Below are positions 4,609-59,572 of a DNA stretch of 64,000 bases, piece by piece. A program made the position numbers and the translations under genes. Location of the stretch: the NCBI GenBank assembly GCA_000004985.1, contig GG738883.1, one strand, 5' to 3'. The stretch comes from Naegleria gruberi (Eukaryota). The notes under the pieces are model-generated. The model was given only the letters and a program-made list of their open reading frames with translations, had not been told where the DNA came from and did no database searches. The stretch's first letter is position 1, and every line of letters starts with the position of its first letter.

Positions 4609-5874
4609 ATGTCCACTCGAGTCAACCAACACCACTCTCTAATTTTTTACTTCCTTGTTGCTGCTGGTGTTCTTACTCTCATCCACTCACAACTTGTTGC
4701 TGCAGTAAATGCAGCCTCTGGCTACGTCTATCCGAAAAATTATCTGACTCTCAATGTGAATAGTGGTGTTTATTCCGTTTCCTTCTCATCGAGTTGTTCA
4801 CTCGTGTTGGGTTATATTTCGTACAGTAATTATAACGATCTGGACAAATTGGCAACCTCTGTTCCTTCTACTTTCACTGTAATTTCAAAGGGTACAACCT
4901 ACTATTCAAACTCGTACAGTTATTATTCCTTAGATTCGAATTATTATTTTGTACTATTTAATAATGGATCATCCAACAGTTGTTATGCTAGCACATTTAG
5001 TGTGGCTTTGGAAATGAATACTTTATCATCCTCCACTCGTTCATTTACACTTCCCTATGGAATTACAAAAACCTTTTCCAATATTTATAGTTATAATAGA
5101 TTGGTTGTTACTTCCTCCAGTAGTTCTTCAATGAGTTTGTACTACAAGTCAGACTATTCATATTCTACACCAACAACAACACCAAATAGTTTGAGTCTTT
5201 ATAGTATTTCTAGATATGGAACTGCAAATATTCCATTGAGTACTTCTCGAAGTTCTTCGTATACCTCATATGTGTATCTTTCATGTGGTAATATTGGTGG
5301 TTGTCCTGTTACTTTATCTCTTGATTCAGATGGTAGTGATTCAGGTGCATCAACTATTATTGGAGCTATTGTTGGACCAATTGCATTTGTTGTAATTTTC
5401 ACATTCATTGTAATCATTTCAGTTGTTTCAACATGTGTGGCAAGAAGAAGAAGAATGCTGATGTTGGCAGCTGCCACTTCAGCTGTTGCAACTACAACCA
5501 CTTACTCAACTCAACCAACCTATGTTCCTGTCCCAACACCAGTTTCAACCACAACAACCACAACTGAAAACACAACTGTTTATGTTCCACCACCAGTTAC
5601 AACGACAGCTCAACAACCTTATAATCCAAATCAAGGTTACATTCCTCAACCTGGTGTTCCACAACCTTATAATCCAAATCAAGCTTACTACTCACAACCA
5701 CCAACTAGTCAACCGTATCAATCATATCAACCATATCAACAATATCAACAACAACAACCAAATACTCAACCTCCACCTTATTACAATCCTGGAGTTGGTG
5801 TCTACCCAACAAACAATGTTCCAGCACAACAAGAACCAAGGCCAGCTTTCAATCCAAATGTCGATAGTGTTTAA
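4609..5874 (+). CDS. Type I membrane glycoprotein, paralog B: same architecture as 2498..3604; tail ends PAFNPNVDSV
   Basis: Signal peptide LIFYFLVAAGVLTLIHS, S/T/Y-rich ectodomain, a CGNIGGCP loop, and TM IIGAIVGPIAFVVIFTFIVIISVV followed by ARRRRMLMLAAATSAVA. The tail is rich in PYNPNQ/QPY repeats and contains a PPPYY (PPxY) motif. The C-terminal 10 residues are near-identical to paralog A. Confidence 0.6.
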   Translation: MSTRVNQHHSLIFYFLVAAGVLTLIHSQLVAAVNAASGYVYPKNYLTLNVNSGVYSVSFSSSCSLVLGYISYSNYNDLDKLATSVPSTFTVISKGTTYYSNSYSYYSLDSNYYFVLFNNGSSNSCYASTFSVALEMNTLSSSTRSFTLPYGITKTFSNIYSYNRLVVTSSSSSSMSLYYKSDYSYSTPTTTPNSLSLYSISRYGTANIPLSTSRSSSYTSYVYLSCGNIGGCPVTLSLDSDGSDSGASTIIGAIVGPIAFVVIFTFIVIISVVSTCVARRRRMLMLAAATSAVATTTTYSTQPTYVPVPTPVSTTTTTTENTTVYVPPPVTTTAQQPYNPNQGYIPQPGVPQPYNPNQAYYSQPPTSQPYQSYQPYQQYQQQQPNTQPPPYYNPGVGVYPTNNVPAQQEPRPAFNPNVDSV

Positions 5875-6163
5875 AATTATTTCTAATTGAATCAATACAT
5901 GAATAGGATCAGTTCTTAATATTGGACTCGGTCAATTAACAAAACAACATTAAAATTCTTTCAATTTTCTATTCTGGACCAGAATATTAACACAAACCTT
6001 ATCCTCTTATCCACCTTCCAAATCTCATCTTTGAAATGTCTTTTGAATTGACCATTAAGTTATGGCTTACACAACCCTTAGGACATTGTAAGAATCTAGC
6101 TTGCTACGGACAATTCAAAAAATGCTAAAAATAAAAAAATTAATCAAATTCTTTTAAAAAAAA

Positions 6164-7861
6164 ATGGCTTCCACTGCACTCCGTGTTGTTTATAACAATT
6201 TGATTGAACATGTCAGAAAGTACAAGATTCTCCAATCGGTGAATGCTCTTGCTGATTGGGATGAGTTAGTCATGATGCCTCCAAAGGGTGCTGAATCAAG
6301 AGGATTGCAAAAGACTGTCTTGGCTTCTTTGACTCACGATTTGCAAACTTCTCCACTCATTGAAAAGTATCTTTCGGAATTGGTAACTACTCAAGATGAT
6401 CAAAAGATTGTAGTGAAGAATGATTCCGAATTTGATGAATATGAAATTTCCAATATTATTCTCATCCATAAGGAATTTATAAGAAATACTAAAATTACAA
6501 AGGAATTGGTTGAGAGAGCTTCTGAATTATCTAGTCGTGGATATCATCAATGGGTTGAAGCTAGAAAGAAAAGTGATTGGACCTTGTTCCAAGACACTCT
6601 CCAAGAATGGGTTAACATTCGTAAGGAAATGAGTTTGTTGATTGAACCAAATCAAAATATTGCTGATACTTTGCTTGACGAATATGATCCTGGAATGACA
6701 TGTGAACAAGTTGCTCAAGTTTTTGAAGATGTCAAGAAGGAATTGATTCCACTCATTCAAGCCATTAGAAAGAAGGTTGAAGAAAATCCAGAAAAATACA
6801 GTGATGCTTCCTTGCTTGCCAAGATTCAAGCTGGTGCAGATGAATTGTTTGATCAAAAGGAACCGTTCCCAGTTGAAAAGCAAACTGAACTCTCCAAGCA
6901 AGTAGCTCAAGAATTAGGTTTCGATTTTGAAATGGGTAGATTGGATGTCAGTGTTCACCCATTCAGTACTTCATTCTCAACCAATGATGTCAGAATTACT
7001 ACCAGATATAATACTAAGGAATTCGTTAATGGTTTGGGTATGTTTTTTTGATGAATTATTGAAATTTATTTACCACATCATTTGGATAATTTGATTATCA
7101 TCATATAATTTACATTATCTTATTCTTGAATAATTACAGCTGGTACTGTACACGAAACAGGACACTCACTCTATGAAGCTGGTCTCAATCCACTCTATGC
7201 CTATCAACCAGTTCAATCTGCTCTTGGTACTACCATCCACGAAAGTCAATCCTTGTTCTGGGAAAGACATGTTGGTTTGAGTAAGGGATTCTGGAGAAAG
7301 TGGTTGCCAGTTGCTGAAGAATTGTTCCCATACTTGAAGCAAAAGAAATTGAGCGTTGATGACATTTACAGATCTGCCAATACTGTCACCCTCAATAACT
7401 TTATCAGAATTGAAGCTGATGAATTGACCTATCCAATGCACGTAATTCTTAGATTTGAAATAGAAAAGGGATTATTGGATGGATCAATCAGTGTTGCTGA
7501 TGTTCCAAAAGTTTGGAATGCCAAAGTTAAGGAATATTTGGGACTTGATGTTCCAAATGATGCTAAGGGTGCTCTCCAAGATGTCCACTGGAGTTCAGGC
7601 GCTTTTGCCTATTTCCCAACATATCTTCTTGGTGCTATGGCCTCTGCTCAAATCTCTGCATCCATTCCAGATTTTGAAAAACACATTGAAGAAAATAACT
7701 ATGCCTTCTTGAAGAATTGGTTGAATGAAAACATCCACAAGAGAGGTACTGTTACATTGACCTCTAACAAGTTGCTTAAGGAAGCTACTGGTTCTGAATT
7801 GAATCCAAAGATCTTTGTTAACTATCTCAAGACTAAATACAGTGCTCTCTATGATCTTTAA
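6164..7861 (+). CDS. Metallocarboxypeptidase, peptidase family M32 (carboxypeptidase Taq-like); 2 exons (6164..7037, 7140..7861; intron 7038..7139)
   Basis: M32 N-terminal region (LADWDELVMMPPKGAESRGLQKTVLASLTHDL). The HEXXH zinc motif HETGHSLYE and the downstream IHESQSLFWE motif sit just after the splice junction (...NGL-A-GTVHETGH...). Distal conserved block DVHWSSGAFAYFPTYLLGAM. Confidence 0.8.
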
Positions 7862-8027: not shown

Positions 8028-8696
8028 ATGATTAGAAGAGCTTGCTCCATTTGTGCCGGTGTCAAACCTGTCAAATTTACAAGCTTCTCCCTGATACCTC
8101 GTTTCATACATTCAGCATCGGAACGACATTTTCATGTAAATCTAAATGCACAAACAAAAGATACTTACCTTCATCTGATGCAACGAGATTATGAAAAACC
8201 AACCTTTTCCACACTCAATATTACTATCCAAGATTGCAAAGAATGGAAGGAATTGGAATTTTTCAAGGCCATGGGTAGAACCATTCCAAGAGGAGGAGCT
8301 GGTTTAGCAAGAGGCGAATTGGAGATACTCCTCAAATCTAGGGAGGTTATGAATCCTATTGATGGTGAATTTCTCATTAAAGTTTCACAAGTTTTGGAGA
8401 AGAAAGGTTCATATGCAGCTAGAAAATATGTGGAATATGAATTGAGAACTGATCCAACAATTGCTAAAAAGATTGTTGATTGGGTAGAAGAGAAATCGAA
8501 AAGAGATGATACAAGTGGAGGTGGTGGAGAAGTAATTACCGATACTAGCTCACCAAATATTCCTCCCAGAGAACGAAAGGAAAAGGAACAAGAAACTTAT
8601 GACGATGAGCAGGAATGGATTGATGATTTTGGTGGAGGATTGGATGGTGGTGATGGTGGTGGTGATGGAGGGGGTGATGGTGGAGGAGGTGATTAG
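8028..8696 (+). CDS. Hypothetical protein with a basic N-terminus resembling an organellar presequence and a C-terminal (GGGD)n low-complexity tail
   Basis: Single 222-aa ORF starting in an aaaaaaaATG context. No family recognised. The C-terminus is GGGLDGGDGGGDGGGDGGGGD. Confidence 0.4.
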   Translation: MIRRACSICAGVKPVKFTSFSLIPRFIHSASERHFHVNLNAQTKDTYLHLMQRDYEKPTFSTLNITIQDCKEWKELEFFKAMGRTIPRGGAGLARGELEILLKSREVMNPIDGEFLIKVSQVLEKKGSYAARKYVEYELRTDPTIAKKIVDWVEEKSKRDDTSGGGGEVITDTSSPNIPPRERKEKEQETYDDEQEWIDDFGGGLDGGDGGGDGGGDGGGGD

Positions 8697-13364: not shown

Positions 13365-16109
13365 ATGCAAAACGAAGGTAAAGAACAACAAAAAGCCGGA
13401 GGTTTCTTCTCCTCACAAAACAAGAGAAGTGAAATCAACGAATGGAGATTGGGCTTGGGAAATGAAAAGGAATCCGTCAGAAAGGATACAGTCAAGAAGG
13501 TTATTGCTGCCATGACTGTCGGTAAAGACGTTTCCATGTTGTTCACTGATGTCATCAAGTGTGTTGCTACCAACAATATCGAACTTAAGAAGTTGGTCTA
13601 TCTTTATATTATGAATTATGCTAAGACTCAACCAGATTTGGCTATCATGGCTGTCAATCAATTCGAAAGAGACTCTAACCATCCAAATCCTTTGATCAGA
13701 GGTTTGGCTGTCAGAACTATGGGTTGTATCAGAGTTAACAAGATTGTCGAATATTTGGCTGAACCAATTAGAAAGACAATCAAGGATAAGGATCCATACG
13801 TCAGAAAGACAGCTGCTGTTGCCATTGCTAAATTGTTCGATATTAATGCTGAAATGGCTATTGAGCAAGGATTTGTTGAAGCTTTGGAAGAATTGTTGAC
13901 TGATGACAACCCTATGGTTGTTGCTAACGCTGTTAAAGCTTTGGATGAAATTTCATCAACATCAAGTGAAGTTATTCTTGATTTCACAGAAAAGACTGTC
14001 AAGACTCTCTTGGCTGCTTTGAACCAATGTACAGAATGGGGTCAAGTTTTTATTTTGGATGCTCTCTCAAATTATCAACCAAAATCTGATAAGGAAACTA
14101 CTGAAATTGCTGAAAGAGTTGCTCCACGTTTGCAACATGCCAACTCTGCTGTCGTCCTTTCTGCTGTCAGAGTTATTAACAAGATGATTGATTTGATTAG
14201 CAATGAAAATGAAAAGAATGAATTGATCCAAAAGATCTCTGCTCCTCTTGTCACATTGTTGAGTGGTAACCCAGAAATTCAATATGTTGCTTTGCGTAAT
14301 ATTGACTTGATTGTCCAAAGTAGACCAGGTATTCTTGCTAACAATATCAAGATGTTCTTCTGTAAATATAACGATCCTATTTATGTCAAGTTGGAAAAGT
14401 TGGATATTATGGTTAAATTGGCTTCTGAACGTAACGTTGATACTGTTTTGATGGAATTCAAGGAATATGCCACTGAAGTTGACGTTGAATTTGTCAGAAG
14501 AAGTGTCCGTGCTATTGGTAGATGTGCCATTAAGCTTGAAAGAGCTGCCCAAAGATGTGTTGATGTTTTGCTTGATTTGATTCAAACTAAGGTTAACTAT
14601 GTCGTCCAAGAAGCTATCATTGTCATTAAGGATATTTTCAGAAGATATCCAAACAAGTATGAAGGTATTATTGGTAAGCTCTGTGAAAACCTCGATACTT
14701 TGGATGAACCAGAAGCTAAGGCTTCTATGATTTGGATTATCGGTGAATATTCCAACAAGATTGAAAATGCTGACGAATTGTTGCAAATCTTTATTGATAC
14801 TTTCCACGATGAAACTTCTCTTGTTCAATTGCAAGCCCTTACTGCTGTCATGAAGCTCTTCTTGAGAAGACCAAACGACACTAGAGATTTGATCAAGAAG
14901 GTTCTCCATTTGTCTACTGAAGAATCTGATAACCCAGATTTGCGTGACAGAGGTTACATTTATTGGCGTTTGCTCAATGAAGACCCAGAAGCTGCTAAGG
15001 CTGTCGTCTTGTCTGAAAAGCCAGTCATTAGAGATGACTCTACCAACATTCCAAAGACCTTGTTGAACGAATTGGTCAAGCATATTGGTACTTTGTCATC
15101 AGTCTATCATAAGCCTCCAGAATTGTTCGTTGCTGGTTACAAGAAGAAGAAGAGTGAATCTGGTGAAGATAAGGAAGTTGAAGATTACCTCAGAGAACAA
15201 CAACACCAAGATGCTGCTGACAGAACTACCACCCAAGATATTCTTGGTTTGGATGACGTTTTGGGAATGGGTACTGGTGCTCCAGCTCAAGATTCTGGTG
15301 ATCTTGATTTGGATGATGTTTTGGGTGTTGGTTCATCTCAACCTCAATTACAATTCTCTGCATCAACATCTGCCAATGCCAACGTTACTTCTCTCGTTCG
15401 TCCAGCTCCACAAAAGAAGTTGTTGCTCACTGCTGATAAGAGCAAGGGTCTCCAAATTTATGGTGCCATCAATAGAAATGCCAGAGGTGGACTCGAATTC
15501 TTGGTCACTTTTGAAAATCTTTCACAACAACCAATCACTGGTTATGCTTGTAAATTCAACACAAACACTTTCGGTTTCGTCCCAGGACAAGTTCAAGCTA
15601 ATGGTATTATGCCTGGTCAAAAGACTGATGGTATTGTTCCAATCCTCCCTGGTAACAATGAATCTGATAAGGTTTCTCCACTTATCCAAGTTGCCATCAA
15701 GACTGATTTGGGTGTTGCTTACTTTGCTGATAGCATTCCATTCAGTGCCTTGTTCATTGAAAATGGTTCTTGTGATAGAGATACTTACCTCACTCTCTTC
15801 CAAAGCATTCCAGATGAAACTGAAAGCACTACTGATGCTCCAAACGCTTCTGCTGGTAATGCTAGCGCTCTCATTTCTAGATTGCAAGCTCACAACATTT
15901 TCTTCGTTGCTGACCATCAAGATGCTGGTTTGACCAACTATTACTTCTCTGCCAAATTCAACTATGGTACTGAAGAAGTTATTGCTCTCTTGGAAATTGT
16001 TGTTAGTGCCAACTCACCACAATGCAAGATTAATACCAGATGTGCTGAAACTCAATTCATCCCATTCATTGAACAAGATGTTGCCAGAATTGTTTCCCTC
16101 ACTTTCTAA
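13365..16109 (+). CDS. AP-1/AP-2 adaptor complex beta subunit (beta-adaptin), single exon, 914 aa
   Basis: Near-invariant trunk motifs VKKVIAAMTVGKDVSMLF, LKKLVYLYIMNYAKTQPDLAIMAVN, NPLIRGLAVRTMGCIRV and DPYVRKTAAVAIAKL. A hinge and an appendage domain follow. Confidence 0.9.
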   Translation: MQNEGKEQQKAGGFFSSQNKRSEINEWRLGLGNEKESVRKDTVKKVIAAMTVGKDVSMLFTDVIKCVATNNIELKKLVYLYIMNYAKTQPDLAIMAVNQFERDSNHPNPLIRGLAVRTMGCIRVNKIVEYLAEPIRKTIKDKDPYVRKTAAVAIAKLFDINAEMAIEQGFVEALEELLTDDNPMVVANAVKALDEISSTSSEVILDFTEKTVKTLLAALNQCTEWGQVFILDALSNYQPKSDKETTEIAERVAPRLQHANSAVVLSAVRVINKMIDLISNENEKNELIQKISAPLVTLLSGNPEIQYVALRNIDLIVQSRPGILANNIKMFFCKYNDPIYVKLEKLDIMVKLASERNVDTVLMEFKEYATEVDVEFVRRSVRAIGRCAIKLERAAQRCVDVLLDLIQTKVNYVVQEAIIVIKDIFRRYPNKYEGIIGKLCENLDTLDEPEAKASMIWIIGEYSNKIENADELLQIFIDTFHDETSLVQLQALTAVMKLFLRRPNDTRDLIKKVLHLSTEESDNPDLRDRGYIYWRLLNEDPEAAKAVVLSEKPVIRDDSTNIPKTLLNELVKHIGTLSSVYHKPPELFVAGYKKKKSESGEDKEVEDYLREQQHQDAADRTTTQDILGLDDVLGMGTGAPAQDSGDLDLDDVLGVGSSQPQLQFSASTSANANVTSLVRPAPQKKLLLTADKSKGLQIYGAINRNARGGLEFLVTFENLSQQPITGYACKFNTNTFGFVPGQVQANGIMPGQKTDGIVPILPGNNESDKVSPLIQVAIKTDLGVAYFADSIPFSALFIENGSCDRDTYLTLFQSIPDETESTTDAPNASAGNASALISRLQAHNIFFVADHQDAGLTNYYFSAKFNYGTEEVIALLEIVVSANSPQCKINTRCAETQFIPFIEQDVARIVSLTF

Positions 16110-18222: not shown

Positions 18223-21186
18223 TTATTCCATCTTTGTTGGTGGTGGCAATTCAGTTGACTCTCCCTTTTGACTAGTAGGTGAAGCAAATGTAGCAGCTGG
18301 TGGAGTTTGTTGCATTTTCATATTAGGAGAAGAGAATTGAGCAAGAAGAGGCTTTCCAAATGGAGAAGGAGTGAAAGGACCACCAACTCCAAGTTTTGGA
18401 GTGCTTGCAAAAGGAGTTGGAGTGCTTGGAATAGCTTCCTTCTTTTCCTTCTTTGCTTTTTCCAAAGCTTCTTGTTCTTGTTGAAGTAATAACAATGACT
18501 TGGATTCTGTTTGGAGAGCTTTCCATTCCTTTGCAAGTTGAGTTTCAATAGCTTGGAAAATCTTAGTGAGTTGAGTATCAGATAAGGTGACACTCTTGAG
18601 TTGTTGCAAGGTGGTTTGGCAAAAGTTCTTCAAAGACATAATACTTTCCTTATATTCATCAAAGCTATGGATACACTTCTTATTTTCATCATCAATATCT
18701 TCATTATCCTTCTTTTCCTTCATCAAGAAAACTTCTTTTGGAACTGTGAGTAAGATGGAACCTAACAAGTGACTAACATATGAAATGTCCTTAATACATG
18801 TACTAACACTGATTTGGAAAGATAAGCTCTCTTGTTTGGTGAAACAAATGTATGGAATAATAAAATGTTCAAAGAGAAGAGAGTATGTTTGAACAAGCTC
18901 TGCAAGTTGAGTAGTGAGGAACCACTTAATATTACCAGACAAGAGAACTGGAATGGCATATTGTTGAATATCCTTGATAACTCTACAGCAATCAGAAATA
19001 AAAGAGTCAACAAAGTTGAATTCACGTTGAATGACAGATTTGCCAAATAATGATAATTCAGTAGTTTCACCTTCAAGGAAGAGTGTTCTGAAAACAAAGT
19101 TCAACTTGTGAAGGTTTTGAGAGTAGTAATGAGCATCACTTGGAATTTCAATATTTCTAAACTTTTCAATATCGTCATCCTTCTTTCTTTCAGTGGCAAA
19201 CTTTCCAATACCTTCATTGTCATTTGGAGTTTCATATCCTGAAATATTTCTGTGCGAATTAAAGGCAGCAATCTTGGCATTTTGGTGGAATCTCAAAATG
19301 GAGAAGATGAGTAACTTTCTTTCAAGGGAGTGCTTCTTGAGTTGTTCTTGTAAAGCATCCATTTCAATTGTAATCTTTGAAGATGAGGAAGCATCAGTAC
19401 TGAACAAGAGTCTTTGAATGAATGGATAAAATTCAAAAGCCAAGAACTCTGGGAGAGGAGGCAATTGATAAGGAATCTTGATTTTAAGCATGGCTTGAGC
19501 CTTATCTCCAGCATAGTATAACCTAGTGAGAGTTTCAATATATTCAACAAAATCATGTACATTGTGTACCTCCTCGAGGAATGACAAGTAAGTTGGCAAA
19601 ATACCAGCAGTATTTACAGGGACAACTGGTGAATTGGATTCAGCAACATTGATAGGGGCTGTTGGAACAGGTGTAGGTACATGGGCTTCATCAGTCATTT
19701 GTTGATCTTGATCTGATGATTTAAAACTAATCTTGATGGTTGTTCCCTTAGTGTTGGTATTAACAAGAGTGGTACCTTCTTTTTGTGGCTTAACTTTGAC
19801 CTTTTTCTTTGCTGATGCATTGGATTCTTCAGGTTCAGTGGCCTTTCTCTTATTCTTTTGCTTCAACATTGGCATGGATAAGAGAACTTGTTCAACGGAC
19901 TCTACAGGCATATTAGGGTGTTGAGAATAAATTAATTCCAATAAATAGAAGATTTCTTGAAGGAGTGTGTTAGAAATGAATGGAGATCTACAAATGACAG
20001 CAATATCTCCCCAAGCTTCACTATCAGAAGGGATATTGTCGAAAAAGTGTCTCAATTCTTTCATTCTTCTAACATCGAAAAAGTCTTTCAAATTGATAGT
20101 GTCAGAACTATCAACTTGTTTGTTTTCACCTTGTTGATTAATTCCTTCGATGGTTTCTTCCTTCTTGACAACAGGCTTTGCCTTAGCTTTGGAGCCCTTC
20201 TTTGGTTTGGCTTTTTTGGTTGCTCCTGTTGAAGATCCCAAAGAACCACTAGAACTGGCATGTGAAAGGGAAGCTTGATTTCTGGTGCAAGTAATCTCAG
20301 TCTTGGCATCTTCTGAATGTTCAGAATAGACATAATTCAATAAATTGGCATGTACAGTTCTAATCCAAGCGTCCAACCACCAACAAAAGTAATGGCACAT
20401 ATCCATTTGGTGAAGTTGTTGAACTTGATTGTCGTGAAGAGCCATCAAAAGATCATATCTGAATGTACACAAATGTCTACTTCCTGTTGCAAGGAGTTGA
20501 CTTCTACAATAGCCTAGAACTCTATGATATAACTTAGGGTCTTTTCCTAAAATATTGATCATGCTTGTCAATGTTTGATTTTTCTCTCTCTTCTTCTTTG
20601 GATCAATTTTATAGGTTGAAAGGAGGTCAATCTTGTAAATTTGAGGAAGGTCATACTTCTTCAGAAGAGTTGAAATGTGTTTGATAAACAAGTTTTCATC
20701 ATTTACCCATACTTGTCTCTTCACTTCAATAGGGAGATTTTTAAAAATCTCATTATTACCTTGAAGTTGTTGTAAAAAGTTGACAGGAATTTCATCCATT
20801 CTCTTCAAAAGAGAGTATACAATCGGACGTAATTCCTCAAATCCAATATATGGGAAAATTTGTTCCAATAGTTCCTTTTCTTGAGTTAATTCACTTTCAT
20901 TTTCAATTTTATCAAGAAGAATTTTCTTCAAATGGTTCATCAAACCAAAAAATAAATTGTTTCTTTGTACATTCAATAGATCGGTTAACTCCAAAATAGG
21001 CGGAATGCTTGGAGACACTGCATTACTAGATAATGATGAAAACTGTTTTTGAAAAGTAGTAATGGCAACCTTTGGATCACCAGAACTCAGCTTGGTAAGA
21101 ATATATTCTTGCCCTTCGGCTCCTAACAGCGCTCTTGAGTGATCAGAATTTGGCGGTTGATAACCTCCTTCACCACTTCCACTCAT
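18223..21186 (-). CDS. NELF-B (COBRA1)-like negative elongation factor subunit, single exon, 987 aa, with low-complexity insert and a coiled-coil C-terminal extension
   Basis: Conserved NELF-B blocks: PIEVKRQVWVNDENLF, KLYHRVLGYCRSQLLATGSRHLCTFRYDLLMALHD and DMCHYFCWWLDAWIR. An S/K-rich insert (ATKKAKPKKGSKAKAKP) and a C-terminal KEWKALQTESKSLLLLQQEQEALEKAKKEKK coiled coil are not part of the remembered family pattern. Confidence 0.65.
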   Translation of the reverse strand: MSGSGEGGYQPPNSDHSRALLGAEGQEYILTKLSSGDPKVAITTFQKQFSSLSSNAVSPSIPPILELTDLLNVQRNNLFFGLMNHLKKILLDKIENESELTQEKELLEQIFPYIGFEELRPIVYSLLKRMDEIPVNFLQQLQGNNEIFKNLPIEVKRQVWVNDENLFIKHISTLLKKYDLPQIYKIDLLSTYKIDPKKKREKNQTLTSMINILGKDPKLYHRVLGYCRSQLLATGSRHLCTFRYDLLMALHDNQVQQLHQMDMCHYFCWWLDAWIRTVHANLLNYVYSEHSEDAKTEITCTRNQASLSHASSSGSLGSSTGATKKAKPKKGSKAKAKPVVKKEETIEGINQQGENKQVDSSDTINLKDFFDVRRMKELRHFFDNIPSDSEAWGDIAVICRSPFISNTLLQEIFYLLELIYSQHPNMPVESVEQVLLSMPMLKQKNKRKATEPEESNASAKKKVKVKPQKEGTTLVNTNTKGTTIKISFKSSDQDQQMTDEAHVPTPVPTAPINVAESNSPVVPVNTAGILPTYLSFLEEVHNVHDFVEYIETLTRLYYAGDKAQAMLKIKIPYQLPPLPEFLAFEFYPFIQRLLFSTDASSSSKITIEMDALQEQLKKHSLERKLLIFSILRFHQNAKIAAFNSHRNISGYETPNDNEGIGKFATERKKDDDIEKFRNIEIPSDAHYYSQNLHKLNFVFRTLFLEGETTELSLFGKSVIQREFNFVDSFISDCCRVIKDIQQYAIPVLLSGNIKWFLTTQLAELVQTYSLLFEHFIIPYICFTKQESLSFQISVSTCIKDISYVSHLLGSILLTVPKEVFLMKEKKDNEDIDDENKKCIHSFDEYKESIMSLKNFCQTTLQQLKSVTLSDTQLTKIFQAIETQLAKEWKALQTESKSLLLLQQEQEALEKAKKEKKEAIPSTPTPFASTPKLGVGGPFTPSPFGKPLLAQFSSPNMKMQQTPPAATFASPTSQKGESTELPPPTKME

Positions 21187-34512: not shown

Positions 34513-34668
34513 CGGCAAATTATTAATAATTTCATCACCTACATCAGTATGGTCGCTTAGTTCAGTCAAACAAGTCAATGAAACACCTACTCAATTTTAT
34601 TGAGACAAATTACTAAAATCACTAAGGTTTCGTTCATGCTCAAGTGACTTATTAAGGAAATAATTGAT

Positions 34669-34759
34669 GGTGAGATGGTCGAGTGGTCTAAGACGACACG
34701 TTAAGGTATGATTGATACCGTGTTCCGCAAGGGCGTGGGTTCAAATCCCACTCTCATCA
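34669..34759 (+). tRNA. tRNA-Leu (anticodon AAG), type II with long variable arm, with 11-nt intron at 34707..34717
   Basis: Acceptor GGTGAGA/TCTCATC plus discriminator A. D-arm GTC-GAGTGGTCTAA-GAC. Anticodon stem ACACG/CGTGT with loop TTAAGG[intron tatgattgata]C. Variable arm TCCGCAAGGGC. T-arm GTGGG-TTCAAAT-CCCAC. A downstream T-run gttttacattgacatttt follows. Confidence 0.8.
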
Positions 34760-34945
34760 GTTTTACATTGACATTTTAAATTCTTAGAGATTAAGCGTAA
34801 CACGACCGTTTAATTTTGATAAACCATTAAAAAATGAACGCAAACAACAGAAACGATCCACTTACTAAATTGTACGTTAGTGATAAGTGATAAGTTTTTC
34901 CTTAGTGCAATTATGAATTAATAAAACAAACTCTATAGACAAAAT

Positions 34946-59498: not shown

Positions 59499-59572
59499 TA
59501 CAGCGAGCGGGGCTTGAACCCGCGACCTTAAGCGTGTTAGGCTTACGATCTAACCAACTGATCTATCGCTGC
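59499..59572 (-). tRNA. tRNA-Val (anticodon AAC)
   Basis: Minus-strand GCAGCGATAGATCAGTTGGTTAGATCGTAAGCCTAACACGCTTAAGGTCGCGGGTTCAAGCCCCGCTCGCTGTA. Anticodon stem TAAGC/GCTTA with loop CTAACAC. T-arm GCGGG-TTCAAGC-CCCGC. There is a G1-U72 wobble in the acceptor stem and a 3' T-run. Confidence 0.75.

What the first reader, a model, noticed from the sequence alone, without database searches (positions are those of the whole stretch)
6164..7861. M32 (carboxypeptidase Taq-type) metallopeptidase gene in a eukaryote
The HETGHSLYE and IHESQSLFWE motifs split by a 102-nt spliceosomal intron, together with the DVHWSSGAFAYFPTY block, identify an M32 carboxypeptidase. M32 enzymes are mainly prokaryotic and among eukaryotes are known chiefly from kinetoplastids and a few other protists; they are absent from animals, plants and classical fungi. 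The intron and host-like codon usage show it is a resident nuclear gene, not contamination. It is a useful phylogenetic marker or a candidate for ancient lateral transfer.
Basis: partly seen in the sequence, partly recalled or inferred. Interest (0 to 1): 0.55.

Follow-up and report, generated by a model that had tools for sequence, protein, structure and literature searches.

The report
Ordinary M32 carboxypeptidase gene in Naegleria
This is an intact zinc carboxypeptidase gene of the M32 (carboxypeptidase Taq) family with one intron, sitting in the nuclear genome of a Naegleria-type amoeba; the same type of gene occurs in many other eukaryotes, so it is an ordinary housekeeping gene and not a rare bacterial import.

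Summary
Window 6164..7861 (+) is a two-exon gene (6164-7037 and 7140-7861) with a 102-nt GT-AG intron. It encodes a 531-aa protein that matches Pfam Peptidase_M32 end to end (E 2.6e-154). All six family motifs are present, and the predicted fold overlays solved M32 structures (TM 0.85-0.88).

One detail is wrong. The intron lies 4 codons upstream of HETGH. It does not lie between HETGH and HESQS.

The host is a Naegleria: 73% identity to N. lovaniensis, 59% to Willaertia, 48% to Acrasis. The flanking genes are eukaryotic and codon usage matches the host.

The "rare in eukaryotes, lateral-transfer candidate" reading is not supported.
- Close homologues (40-48% identity) occur in green algae, early-diverging fungi, Amoebozoa, a red alga, an ochrophyte and a jakobid.
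- All 34 named non-kinetoplastid eukaryote sequences, and the window protein, share a one-residue insertion. It is absent from 92 of the 94 prokaryote sequences sampled; the other two have aberrant lengths.
- In distance trees these eukaryotes plus a Nitrospina/Nitrosomonas group form one clade with 81-99% bootstrap support.
- Exclusive eukaryote monophyly is unresolved (6-35%).
- Kinetoplastid M32s belong to a different subfamily that groups with beta/gamma-proteobacteria.

Verdict: an ordinary, already known kind of gene. Interest is low.

The parts
6164..7037 (+). Exon 1 of the M32 carboxypeptidase gene (codons 1-291 plus the first base of codon 292). It carries the HPF motif (6956-6964) and the DVRIT motif (6986-7000).
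   Evidence: ORF listing and sequence. There is an in-frame TAA three codons upstream of the ATG. The N-termini of the N. lovaniensis and Willaertia orthologues align with this start.
7038..7139 (+). Spliceosomal intron: 102 nt, GTATGT...ACAG, phase 1, inside codon A292.
   Evidence: Removing it restores one 531-codon frame, and the junction region aligns without gaps to orthologues and to solved M32 structures. GC is 19.6% against 38% for the CDS. No transcript data were available to confirm the junction.
7140..7861 (+). Exon 2 (rest of codon 292 to codon 531, plus the TAA stop at 7859-7861).
7151..7165 (+). HETGH = the HEXXH zinc-binding and catalytic motif (H296, E297, H300).
   Evidence: Regex on the spliced protein. 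The columns are invariant in the 18-sequence alignment. The roles of the residues are taken from the family description in PMC7918520.
7238..7249 (+). HESQ motif (H325-Q328). E326 is the presumed third zinc ligand, 26 residues after H300.
   Evidence: The ligand role is inferred from homology with solved M32 structures (established knowledge, not tested here).
7403..7420 (+). IRIEAD = the IRXXAD family motif (aa 380-385).
   Evidence: motif list from PMC7918520.
7568..7591 (+). GALQDVHW = the GXXQDXHW family motif (aa 435-442). It is followed by GAFAYFPTY.
7745..7774 (+). Segment G494..L503. It holds the one-residue insertion (8 residues between the two invariant anchors instead of 7) that marks the non-kinetoplastid eukaryote type of M32.
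   Evidence: Residue counts between the invariant anchors in the 224-sequence alignment.

Best explanation
Window 6164-7861 (+) is a functional, resident nuclear gene of a Naegleria-type heterolobosean amoeba. It encodes a zinc-dependent M32 (carboxypeptidase Taq-type) metallocarboxypeptidase.

Inferred mechanism:
- H296 and H300 of HETGH, and E326 of HESQ, hold the metal ion.
- E297 activates the water molecule.
- The enzyme removes C-terminal residues one at a time from short peptides that fit its deep helical groove.
- It has no N-terminal extension beyond the catalytic domain, so it most likely works in the cytosol. There it would finish peptide breakdown and recycle amino acids.

Evolution:
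- The gene is the orthologue of genes in N. lovaniensis, Willaertia and Acrasis.
- It belongs to a eukaryote-type M32 lineage also present in jakobids, green algae, early-diverging fungi, Amoebozoa, a red alga and an ochrophyte. The nearest bacterial relatives of that lineage are Nitrospina/Nitrosomonas enzymes.
- It is not the same lineage as the kinetoplastid M32 enzymes.

Shown here: gene structure, family membership, motifs, predicted fold, host residency, orthology within Heterolobosea, and separation from the kinetoplastid type. Inferred only: activity, metal, substrate range, cytosolic location, and vertical descent from an early eukaryote.
For: Family membership:
- Pfam PF02074 end to end, E 2.6e-154.
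- Eight solved M32 sequences hit at E 3e-96 to 1e-75 over the full length.
- All six motifs are present: HPF265, DVRIT275, HETGH296, HESQ325, IRIEAD380, GALQDVHW435 (list from PMC7918520).
- The AlphaFold model has pLDDT 91.5 and pTM 0.91. It overlays every solved M32 structure at TM 0.83-0.88 and rmsd 2.3-3.2 A. ACE and neurolysin follow only at E ~1e-9.

Residency:
- GT-AG intron.
- RSCU r = 0.916 against the other ORFs of the window; GC3 is 0.33 against 0.29 +/- 0.04.
- Even composition across the window.
- Neighbours are beta-adaptin, COBRA1/NELF-B and an RRM protein.

Orthology: 73% identity to N. lovaniensis, 59% to Willaertia, 48% to Acrasis. Heterolobosean monophyly has 82-100% bootstrap support.

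No presequence: invariant Y10 aligns with the start of bacterial enzymes, and an in-frame stop lies 3 codons upstream of the ATG.

Eukaryote-type lineage:
- The G494..L503 segment has 8 residues in 34 of 34 named non-kinetoplastid eukaryotes. It has 7 in the 6 nitrifiers, L009, 69 of 70 other bacteria, 6 of 7 archaea, 9 of 9 kinetoplastid-like proteobacteria and 10 of 10 kinetoplastids.
- The clade of eukaryotes + nitrifiers + L009 has 81% and 99% support.
- An intron at phase 0 after W130 is shared by both Acrasis genes and Planoprotostelium. Another at phase 0 after F255 is shared by Gonapodya and Planoprotostelium.
- The window protein scores 658 bits against a profile of the other eukaryotes, 503 against nitrifiers and 380 against kinetoplastids.
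Against: - No transcript, activity or localisation data exist for this gene. The splice junction, metal, substrate range and compartment are all inferred.
- Exclusive monophyly of the eukaryote sequences gets only 6-35% bootstrap support in neighbour-joining trees. No maximum-likelihood analysis could be run.
- The insertion marker is not perfectly clean. A subgroup from eukaryote sources lacks it, yet it groups with the heterolobosean core at 63%. This subgroup is Heterolobosea sp. BB2 (P0006) plus P0011, P0013, P0018, P0024 and P0043.
- One sequence from a MAG labelled only 'uncultured bacterium' (L009) falls inside the clade.
- Gene order around the gene is not conserved with N. lovaniensis or Willaertia within +/-10 kb.
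Confidence: 0.85

Rival explanations
1. The heterolobosean lineage acquired the gene on its own from a bacterium, for example a Nitrospina/Nitrosomonas-like one. In that case its resemblance to other eukaryote M32 genes reflects several parallel transfers from related donors and not common eukaryotic descent.
For: - The backbone inside the eukaryote + nitrifier clade is unresolved. Exclusive eukaryote monophyly has only 6-35% bootstrap support.
- Heterolobosea + nitrifiers is recovered in 19-20% of replicates.
- The best bacterial identities (about 40-43%) are close to those with other eukaryotes (42-47%).
Against: - The window protein carries the one-residue insertion found in 34 of 34 named non-kinetoplastid eukaryotes. 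None of the 92 normal-length prokaryote sequences sampled has it, including all 6 named nitrifiers.
- The two Acrasis paralogues share an exact intron position with the amoebozoan Planoprotostelium.
- A jakobid sequence (Stygiella) groups near the heteroloboseans.
- Any transfer must predate the split of Naegleria, Willaertia and Acrasis.
- Codon usage is fully host-like.
Confidence: 0.1
2. The gene descends vertically from the same ancestor as the kinetoplastid M32 enzymes (TcMCP-1/2), as a shared trait of Discoba.
For: No tool result here favours this reading.
Against: - Heterolobosea + kinetoplastids is recovered in 0 of 200 bootstrap replicates under either distance correction.
- Kinetoplastid enzymes are 50-54% identical to Chromobacterium, Hafnia and Pantoea enzymes. 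They average only 34.6% identity to the window protein.
- Kinetoplastids and those proteobacteria alone share two length changes: F267..D275 has 6 residues (most others have 7) and G426..G435 has 9 (nearly all others have 8). Both groups lack the eukaryote-type insertion.
Confidence: 0.02
3. The region is bacterial contamination or an assembly chimera and not a gene of the host.
For: M32 is mostly a prokaryotic family (PMC6675120).
Against: - It has a GT-AG intron of 19.6% GC.
- It lies in a 64-kb stretch of even composition, between eukaryotic genes.
- Its codon usage matches the host.
- Orthologues with introns lie on 0.5-0.6 Mb contigs of N. lovaniensis and Willaertia.
- A 97.8%-identical copy with the same structure occurs on an independent metagenome contig.
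Confidence: 0.01
4. The gene is real, but its product is sent to an organelle (mitochondrion) or secreted, and does not act in the cytosol.
For: Several homologues in other eukaryotes have N-terminal extensions of 20-50 residues that look like targeting sequences. Examples are Planoprotostelium, Chlamydomonas, Ochromonadaceae, Acrasis copy 2 and Mortierella. One Leptomonas homologue is annotated 'putative mitochondrial carboxypeptidase'.
Against: - The window protein has only 9 residues before invariant Y10. That is fewer than the bacterial Nitrospina enzyme has.
- An in-frame stop lies 3 codons upstream of the ATG.
- The N. lovaniensis and Willaertia orthologues start at the same point.
- No targeting predictor was available.
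Confidence: 0.07

Closest known systems
Naegleria lovaniensis 'Carboxypeptidase Taq' (hypothetical protein C9374_005563; P0001), with the Willaertia magna and Acrasis kona orthologues
   Same: - 73%, 59% and 48% identity over the full length.
- The same family-wide motifs.
- The same heterolobosean 4-5-residue deletion between G456 and G494.
- In Naegleria and Willaertia, the same long insertion between L197 and Q240.
- One intron in the same part of the gene in Naegleria and Willaertia.
   Different: - The intron positions differ. In the window it is in codon A292 at phase 1. In N. lovaniensis it lies 32 nt upstream at phase 2. In Willaertia it lies 87 nt downstream at phase 1.
- The flanking genes are not conserved.
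Solved bacterial M32 enzymes: B. subtilis BsuCP (3hq2), Chitinophaga ChtCP (7a03), Thermus (3hoa/5wvu), Pyrococcus PfuCP (1k9x)
   Same: Same fold (TM 0.83-0.88, rmsd 2.3-3.2 A), the same six motifs, and full-length alignment at E 1e-75 to 3e-96.
   Different: - 31-35% identity.
- The window protein is about 30 residues longer. This is due to lineage-specific insertions at aa ~74-86 and ~205-235 and the one-residue eukaryote-type insertion.
- It is not expected to be thermostable (inference).
Trypanosomatid M32 enzymes (TcMCP-1, PDB 3dwc; TcMCP-2; TbMCP-1; Leishmania)
   Same: Same family and fold, from a eukaryotic host, and no N-terminal presequence.
   Different: - A different subfamily, about 35% identical.
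- Kinetoplastid enzymes group with beta/gamma-proteobacteria at 67-74% bootstrap support and share two length changes with them.
- They lack the eukaryote-type insertion.
Nitrospina / Nitrosomonas M32 carboxypeptidases (e.g. Nitrospina watsonii, P0093)
   Same: They are the closest prokaryotic relatives (40-43% identity). With the eukaryote-type sequences they form a clade with 81-99% support.
   Different: They are bacterial and have no introns. They lack the one-residue insertion and the heterolobosean deletion.

Membership tests
MEROPS M32 / Pfam PF02074 (carboxypeptidase Taq family) | Full-length match to the family profile above the curated threshold | tested here: met
   514.9 bits against a cut-off of 25.1, E 2.6e-154; residues 13-525 cover profile positions 2-489 of 489.
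MEROPS M32 / Pfam PF02074 (carboxypeptidase Taq family) | HEXXH motif: two zinc-binding histidines and the catalytic glutamate | tested here: met
   HETGH at aa 296-300. H296, E297 and H300 are invariant in the 18-sequence alignment. The feature is as described in PMC7918520.
MEROPS M32 / Pfam PF02074 (carboxypeptidase Taq family) | The five further conserved motifs: DXRXT, HPF, HESQ, IRXXAD, GXXQDXHW | tested here: met
   DVRIT275, HPF265, HESQ325, IRIEAD380 and GALQDVHW435. The motif list is from PMC7918520.
MEROPS M32 / Pfam PF02074 (carboxypeptidase Taq family) | Mostly helical two-subdomain fold with a deep substrate groove, as in PfuCP, TaqCP and BsuCP | tested here: met
   The AlphaFold2 model (pLDDT 91.5, pTM 0.91) matches all solved M32 structures at TM 0.83-0.88 and rmsd 2.3-3.2 A. 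This is a prediction, not a solved structure.
MEROPS M32 / Pfam PF02074 (carboxypeptidase Taq family) | Metal-dependent carboxypeptidase activity on short peptides | not testable with these tools
   This needs recombinant enzyme assays.
Eukaryote-type M32 lineage (working name; non-kinetoplastid eukaryotes) | One extra residue between invariant G494 and L503 (8 instead of 7) | tested here: met
   The window has 8, as do 34 of 34 named non-kinetoplastid eukaryotes. Of the 94 prokaryote sequences, 92 have 7 and two have aberrant lengths. All 10 kinetoplastids have 7. Exception: the Heterolobosea sp. BB2 subgroup has 7.
Eukaryote-type M32 lineage (working name; non-kinetoplastid eukaryotes) | Tree placement among eukaryote sequences to the exclusion of all bacteria | tested here: inconclusive
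   The clade of eukaryotes + nitrifiers + L009 has 78-99% support. The eukaryote-only clade has 6-35%. These are neighbour-joining trees only.
Kinetoplastid-type M32 (TcMCP-1/2 subfamily) | Groups with kinetoplastid and beta/gamma-proteobacterial enzymes, and shares their two length changes (F267..D275 = 6 residues; G426..G435 = 9) | tested here: not met
   The window has 7 and 8 residues in those segments. Heterolobosea + kinetoplastids is recovered in 0 of 200 bootstrap replicates. Identity is about 35%.
Other clan MA(E) oligopeptidases (M2 ACE, M3 thimet oligopeptidase/neurolysin) | Profile match to those families, or a close structural match | tested here: not met
   No Pfam hit other than PF02074 at E <= 0.001. 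The structural matches are distant: E ~1e-9, TM ~0.6, 12-15% identity.

The most novel reading that the evidence does not exclude
The M32 genes of non-kinetoplastid eukaryotes form one old, intron-bearing eukaryotic lineage. This covers Heterolobosea, Jakobida, green and red algae, ochrophytes, Amoebozoa and early-diverging fungi. The lineage is marked by a one-residue insertion and is sister to Nitrospina/Nitrosomonas enzymes. Kinetoplastids carry an unrelated proteobacterial xenologue. If so, the common statement that M32 occurs in 'just a few eukaryotes' is out of date. The open question of horizontal transfer versus lineage sorting for the trypanosomatid enzymes (raised in PMC4413820) would be settled in favour of a separate transfer. 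Because a fellow discoban (Naegleria) holds the eukaryote type, it is a useful test case.
Probability: 0.5. Interest if true: 0.35.

Novelty: already known. Interest (0 to 1): 0.15.

Why it matters
It matters little for the gene itself. It is a standard member of a well-characterised peptidase family, and its orthologues in related amoebae are already labelled 'Carboxypeptidase Taq' in public databases.

The modest wider value is evolutionary.
- The window gene and its relatives show that eukaryotes hold two unrelated M32 lineages. One is widespread and of the eukaryote type. The other is a kinetoplastid type that resembles proteobacterial enzymes.
- This bears on the long-standing claim that trypanosomatid M32 enzymes arose by horizontal transfer.
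- It also bears on their promotion as drug targets on the ground that they are absent from the host.
- The one-residue insertion is a simple marker for telling the two lineages apart.

If Naegleria fowleri holds the same enzyme, its absence from humans could be noted for target surveys. That was not examined here.

Tried and rejected
- Synteny. tblastx of +/-10 kb around the N. lovaniensis and Willaertia orthologues against the window found no shared neighbours. Gene order therefore gives no support for or against orthology.
- Intron homology. Global alignment of the window intron with the N. lovaniensis and Willaertia introns gave z = 2.4 and 2.0 against shuffles. This is too weak to tell sliding from loss followed by gain.
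- Literature. Searches for M32 + carboxypeptidase + Naegleria found only a MEROPS paper that does not discuss this gene. The primary paper Niemirowicz 2007 (PMC1820797) is not held. Its claims are cited only through PMC4413820 and PMC6675120.
- Chlamydomonas introns. The look-up of the C. reinhardtii gene found no record, so no green-algal intron map was made.
- The insertion as a clean synapomorphy of all eukaryote M32. This was rejected in its strict form, because the Heterolobosea sp. BB2 subgroup lacks the insertion.
- Exclusive eukaryote monophyly from distance trees. This was not obtained (6-35%), and no maximum-likelihood program was available.
- Rfam and tRNA scans of the window showed nothing related to the gene.
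- Absence of M32 from land plants, animals and Dikarya was not tested. Only the best 120 of more than 7,900 hits are listed.
Full report
**1. The observation**

- Two open frames, 6164-7051 and 7253-7861, are joined by removing 7038-7139. This is a 102-nt intron (GTATGT...ACAG, phase 1). It has 19.6% GC, against 38% for the coding sequence.
- The spliced frame is 531 codons long. HETGHSLYE is at aa 296, IHESQSLFWE at aa 324 and DVHWSSGAFAYFPTY at aa 439.
The intron does not separate the two zinc motifs. It interrupts codon A292 in ...EFVNGL|AGTVHETGH..., so both motifs lie in exon 2.

**2. What the protein is**

- Pfam gives a single hit, Peptidase_M32 (PF02074). It covers residues 13-525 against profile positions 2-489 of 489, at E 2.6e-154.
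- Eight solved M32 sequences are matched over their full length at E 3e-96 to 1e-75. They include Chitinophaga 7a03, B. subtilis 3hq2, T. cruzi 3dwc, Thermus and Pyrococcus.
- All six conserved motifs listed for the family in PMC7918520 are present: HPF265, DVRIT275, HETGH296, HESQ325, IRIEAD380 and GALQDVHW435.
- An AlphaFold2 model built on an 18-sequence alignment has pLDDT 91.5 and pTM 0.91. It overlays every solved M32 structure at TM 0.83-0.88 and rmsd 2.3-3.2 A. ACE, ACE2, neurolysin and thimet oligopeptidase come next, at E ~1e-9 and TM ~0.6.
- Membership of M32 is therefore met on every feature that can be tested by computation. Enzyme activity cannot be tested here.

**3. Host and residency**

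- The best full-length relatives are Naegleria lovaniensis (73% identity), Willaertia magna (59%) and Acrasis kona (48% and 43%). The window therefore comes from a Naegleria. Its 34% GC fits the N. gruberi group, but that point rests on my own recollection.
- A metagenome contig (ENA ERZ929261) is 97.8% identical in DNA over 2.8 kb and has the same gene structure.
- The window has even composition, 0.29-0.40 GC per 2 kb.
- The gene's RSCU correlates with the other long ORFs at r = 0.916. Among those ORFs the value is 0.862 +/- 0.086. GC3 is 0.33 against 0.29 +/- 0.04.
- Nearby genes are plainly eukaryotic: beta-adaptin (13365-16109), COBRA1/NELF-B (18223-21186, minus strand), an RRM protein and an amino-acid transporter.
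- Contamination is excluded.
- An in-frame stop lies three codons upstream of the ATG. Invariant Y10 aligns with the very start of bacterial enzymes. The N. lovaniensis and Willaertia proteins begin at the same point. There is no room for a presequence, so a cytosolic location is the best inference. No targeting predictor was available.

**4. Distribution and phylogeny**

[quoted passage not shown] A review left open whether the T. cruzi enzymes reflect horizontal transfer or lineage sorting, pending wider sampling of eukaryotes (PMC4413820).

The search with the window protein gives a wider picture. It returned named homologues at 40-48% identity from:
- many green algae;
- fungi: Mortierellomycota, Calcarisporiella, Gonapodya and an aphelid (Amoeboaphelidium);
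- Amoebozoa: Planoprotostelium, Protostelium and Pyxidicula;
- the red alga Porphyridium and an ochrophyte;
- the jakobid Stygiella and Heterolobosea sp. BB2.

The closest prokaryotes are Nitrosomonas and Nitrospina, at about 40%.

A search with T. cruzi MCP-1 shows a different pattern. Trypanosomatid enzymes are 50-54% identical to Chromobacterium, Hafnia and Pantoea enzymes. They are only about 35% identical to the window protein.

Neighbour-joining trees, 224 sequences and 493 columns:
- window + N. lovaniensis: 100% bootstrap;
- adding Willaertia: 100%;
- adding Acrasis and two environmental sequences: 82%;
- a cluster of all non-kinetoplastid eukaryotes: only 35%;
- that cluster plus the nitrifier clade: 78%;
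- kinetoplastids: 98%;
- kinetoplastids together with the proteobacterial enzymes most like them, on the far side of a split with 74% support.

Named sequences only, 137 sequences and 200 replicates:
- Heterolobosea: 100%;
- eukaryotes + L009 + nitrifiers: 81%;
- eukaryotes alone: 6%;
- Heterolobosea + nitrifiers: 19-20%;
- Heterolobosea + kinetoplastids: 0%.

Focused, re-aligned set of 77 sequences and 300 replicates:
- eukaryotes + L009 + nitrifiers: 99%;
- nitrifiers: 100%;
- eukaryotes alone: 31%;
- heterolobosean core + BB2 group: 63%;
- adding the Stygiella/aphelid pair: 64%.

**5. Rare changes**

Residues were counted between invariant anchor columns, which does not depend on where gaps are placed.
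- G494..L503 holds 8 residues in the window protein and in 34 of 34 named non-kinetoplastid eukaryotes. It also holds 8 in Stygiella and in the aphelid cluster.
- It holds 7 in all 6 named nitrifiers, in L009, in 69 of 70 other bacteria, in 6 of 7 archaea, in all 9 kinetoplastid-like proteobacteria and in all 10 kinetoplastids.
- Exception: the BB2 subgroup (P0006, P0011, P0013, P0018, P0024, P0043) has 7. It comes from eukaryotic sources; the P0018 contig also carries a WD40-HECT gene. It groups with the heterolobosean core. This is most simply read as a secondary loss.
- Kinetoplastids and their proteobacterial relatives share 6 residues in F267..D275, where most others have 7. They alone have 9 residues in G426..G435, where nearly all others have 8.
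- The heterolobosean core shares a 4-5-residue deletion between G456 and G494.

**6. Introns**

Introns were mapped by exact reconstruction of the annotated proteins.
- A phase-0 intron after the residue aligned with W130 is shared by both Acrasis paralogues and by the amoebozoan Planoprotostelium.
- A phase-0 intron after the residue aligned with F255 is shared by Gonapodya and Planoprotostelium.
- The window intron (phase 1, codon A292) lies exactly 3 nt from a phase-1 intron of Planoprotostelium, in an ungapped stretch of the alignment.
- Given 7-11 introns per gene and about 1,500 possible sites, each exact coincidence has a chance of roughly 5-7% by my rough estimate. The sharing is therefore suggestive, not decisive.
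- Together with the insertion, it favours common descent of the eukaryote-type genes over several recent bacterial imports.

**7. Mechanism (inferred)**

- The protein is a gluzincin. H296, H300 and E326 bind Zn (or Co), and E297 acts as the general base.
- The HPF, DXRXT, IRXXAD and GXXQDXHW motifs line the groove. They are said to take part in metal and substrate binding (PMC7918520).
- The enzyme should remove C-terminal residues from short peptides in the cytosol.
- The cellular role of M32 enzymes is still unknown, even in trypanosomatids (PMC6675120).

**8. Verdict**

- The gene is real, intact and correctly identified as M32.
- It is an ordinary resident gene of a Naegleria, orthologous to genes already labelled 'Carboxypeptidase Taq' in related species.
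- It belongs to a widespread eukaryote-type lineage. It is not an isolated or kinetoplastid-like occurrence.
The caveat is that eukaryote-only monophyly is not resolved by the distance trees available here.
- Interest is low.
- The most novel reading left open is that eukaryotes hold two unrelated M32 lineages, with kinetoplastids carrying a proteobacterial xenologue. That concerns the family as a whole more than this locus.

Noticed in passing
window 7038-7139; L002 10834-10942; L003 10968-11037: Three related heteroloboseans each have exactly one intron in this gene, but at three different places within about 120 nt of coding sequence. In the window it is in codon A292 at phase 1. In N. lovaniensis it lies 32 nt upstream at phase 2. 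In Willaertia it lies 87 nt downstream at phase 1, between HEXXH and HE(S/G)QS. The coding sequence is contiguous across each of the other species' sites, so these are real differences. They could reflect intron sliding or repeated loss and gain.
   Followed up: partly
window 6164-7861, protein aa ~74-86 and ~205-235: Naegleria and Willaertia carry lineage-specific insertions. L197..Q240 holds 36-48 residues, against 24 in most M32 enzymes. R46..W130 holds about 9 extra residues, modelled as a small beta-hairpin. The longer insert is the least confident part of the model (pLDDT about 66-86).
   Followed up: partly
L009 (CAZIKF010000007.1, 132-kb MAG contig labelled 'uncultured bacterium'): This intronless M32 gene falls inside the clade of eukaryote-type and nitrifier sequences, apart from the nitrifier clade. 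It lacks the eukaryote insertion. Only 200 nt of flank was fetched, so its bacterial origin could not be checked.
   Followed up: no
P0006 (Heterolobosea sp. BB2), P0011, P0013, P0018 (L089 3353-4867), P0024, P0043: This second group of M32 sequences from eukaryote sources sits next to the heterolobosean core. It lacks both the one-residue eukaryote insertion and the heterolobosean deletion. The P0018 gene is intronless and lies on a contig with a WD40-HECT gene.
   Followed up: partly
L001 (ENA ERZ929261, contig k127_457174) against window 5084-7860: An environmental metagenome contig is 97.8% identical to the window over 2.8 kb. Its exon-1 product is identical to the window's. A very close relative of the source organism is therefore present in that sample.
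   Followed up: no
window 4609-5874 (+): The upstream neighbour encodes a 421-aa protein with no Pfam hit. It has a hydrophobic stretch near the N-terminus, a long Ser/Tyr/Thr-rich region, a hydrophobic stretch followed by RRRR, and a Pro/Gln/Tyr-rich tail with repeated QPYNPNQ units. It looks like a surface glycoprotein.
   Followed up: no
window 8028-8696 (+): The downstream neighbour encodes a 222-aa protein with no Pfam hit. It ends in a Gly/Asp repeat (GGGLDGGDGGGDGGGDGGGGD).
   Followed up: no
window 34668-34760 (+) and 59499-59572 (-): There are two tRNA genes. The first is 93 nt long, and ARAGORN could not assign its anticodon (Rfam tRNA, 48 bits); it may contain an intron. The second is tRNA-Val(AAC).
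   Followed up: no
L084 and L088 (Acrasis kona M32 paralogues): The annotated introns are very short (36-46 nt). In the second paralogue all three are in phase 0 and their lengths are multiples of three (36, 36, 39). They might be annotation artefacts and not true introns. That would weaken one of the shared-position arguments.
   Followed up: no
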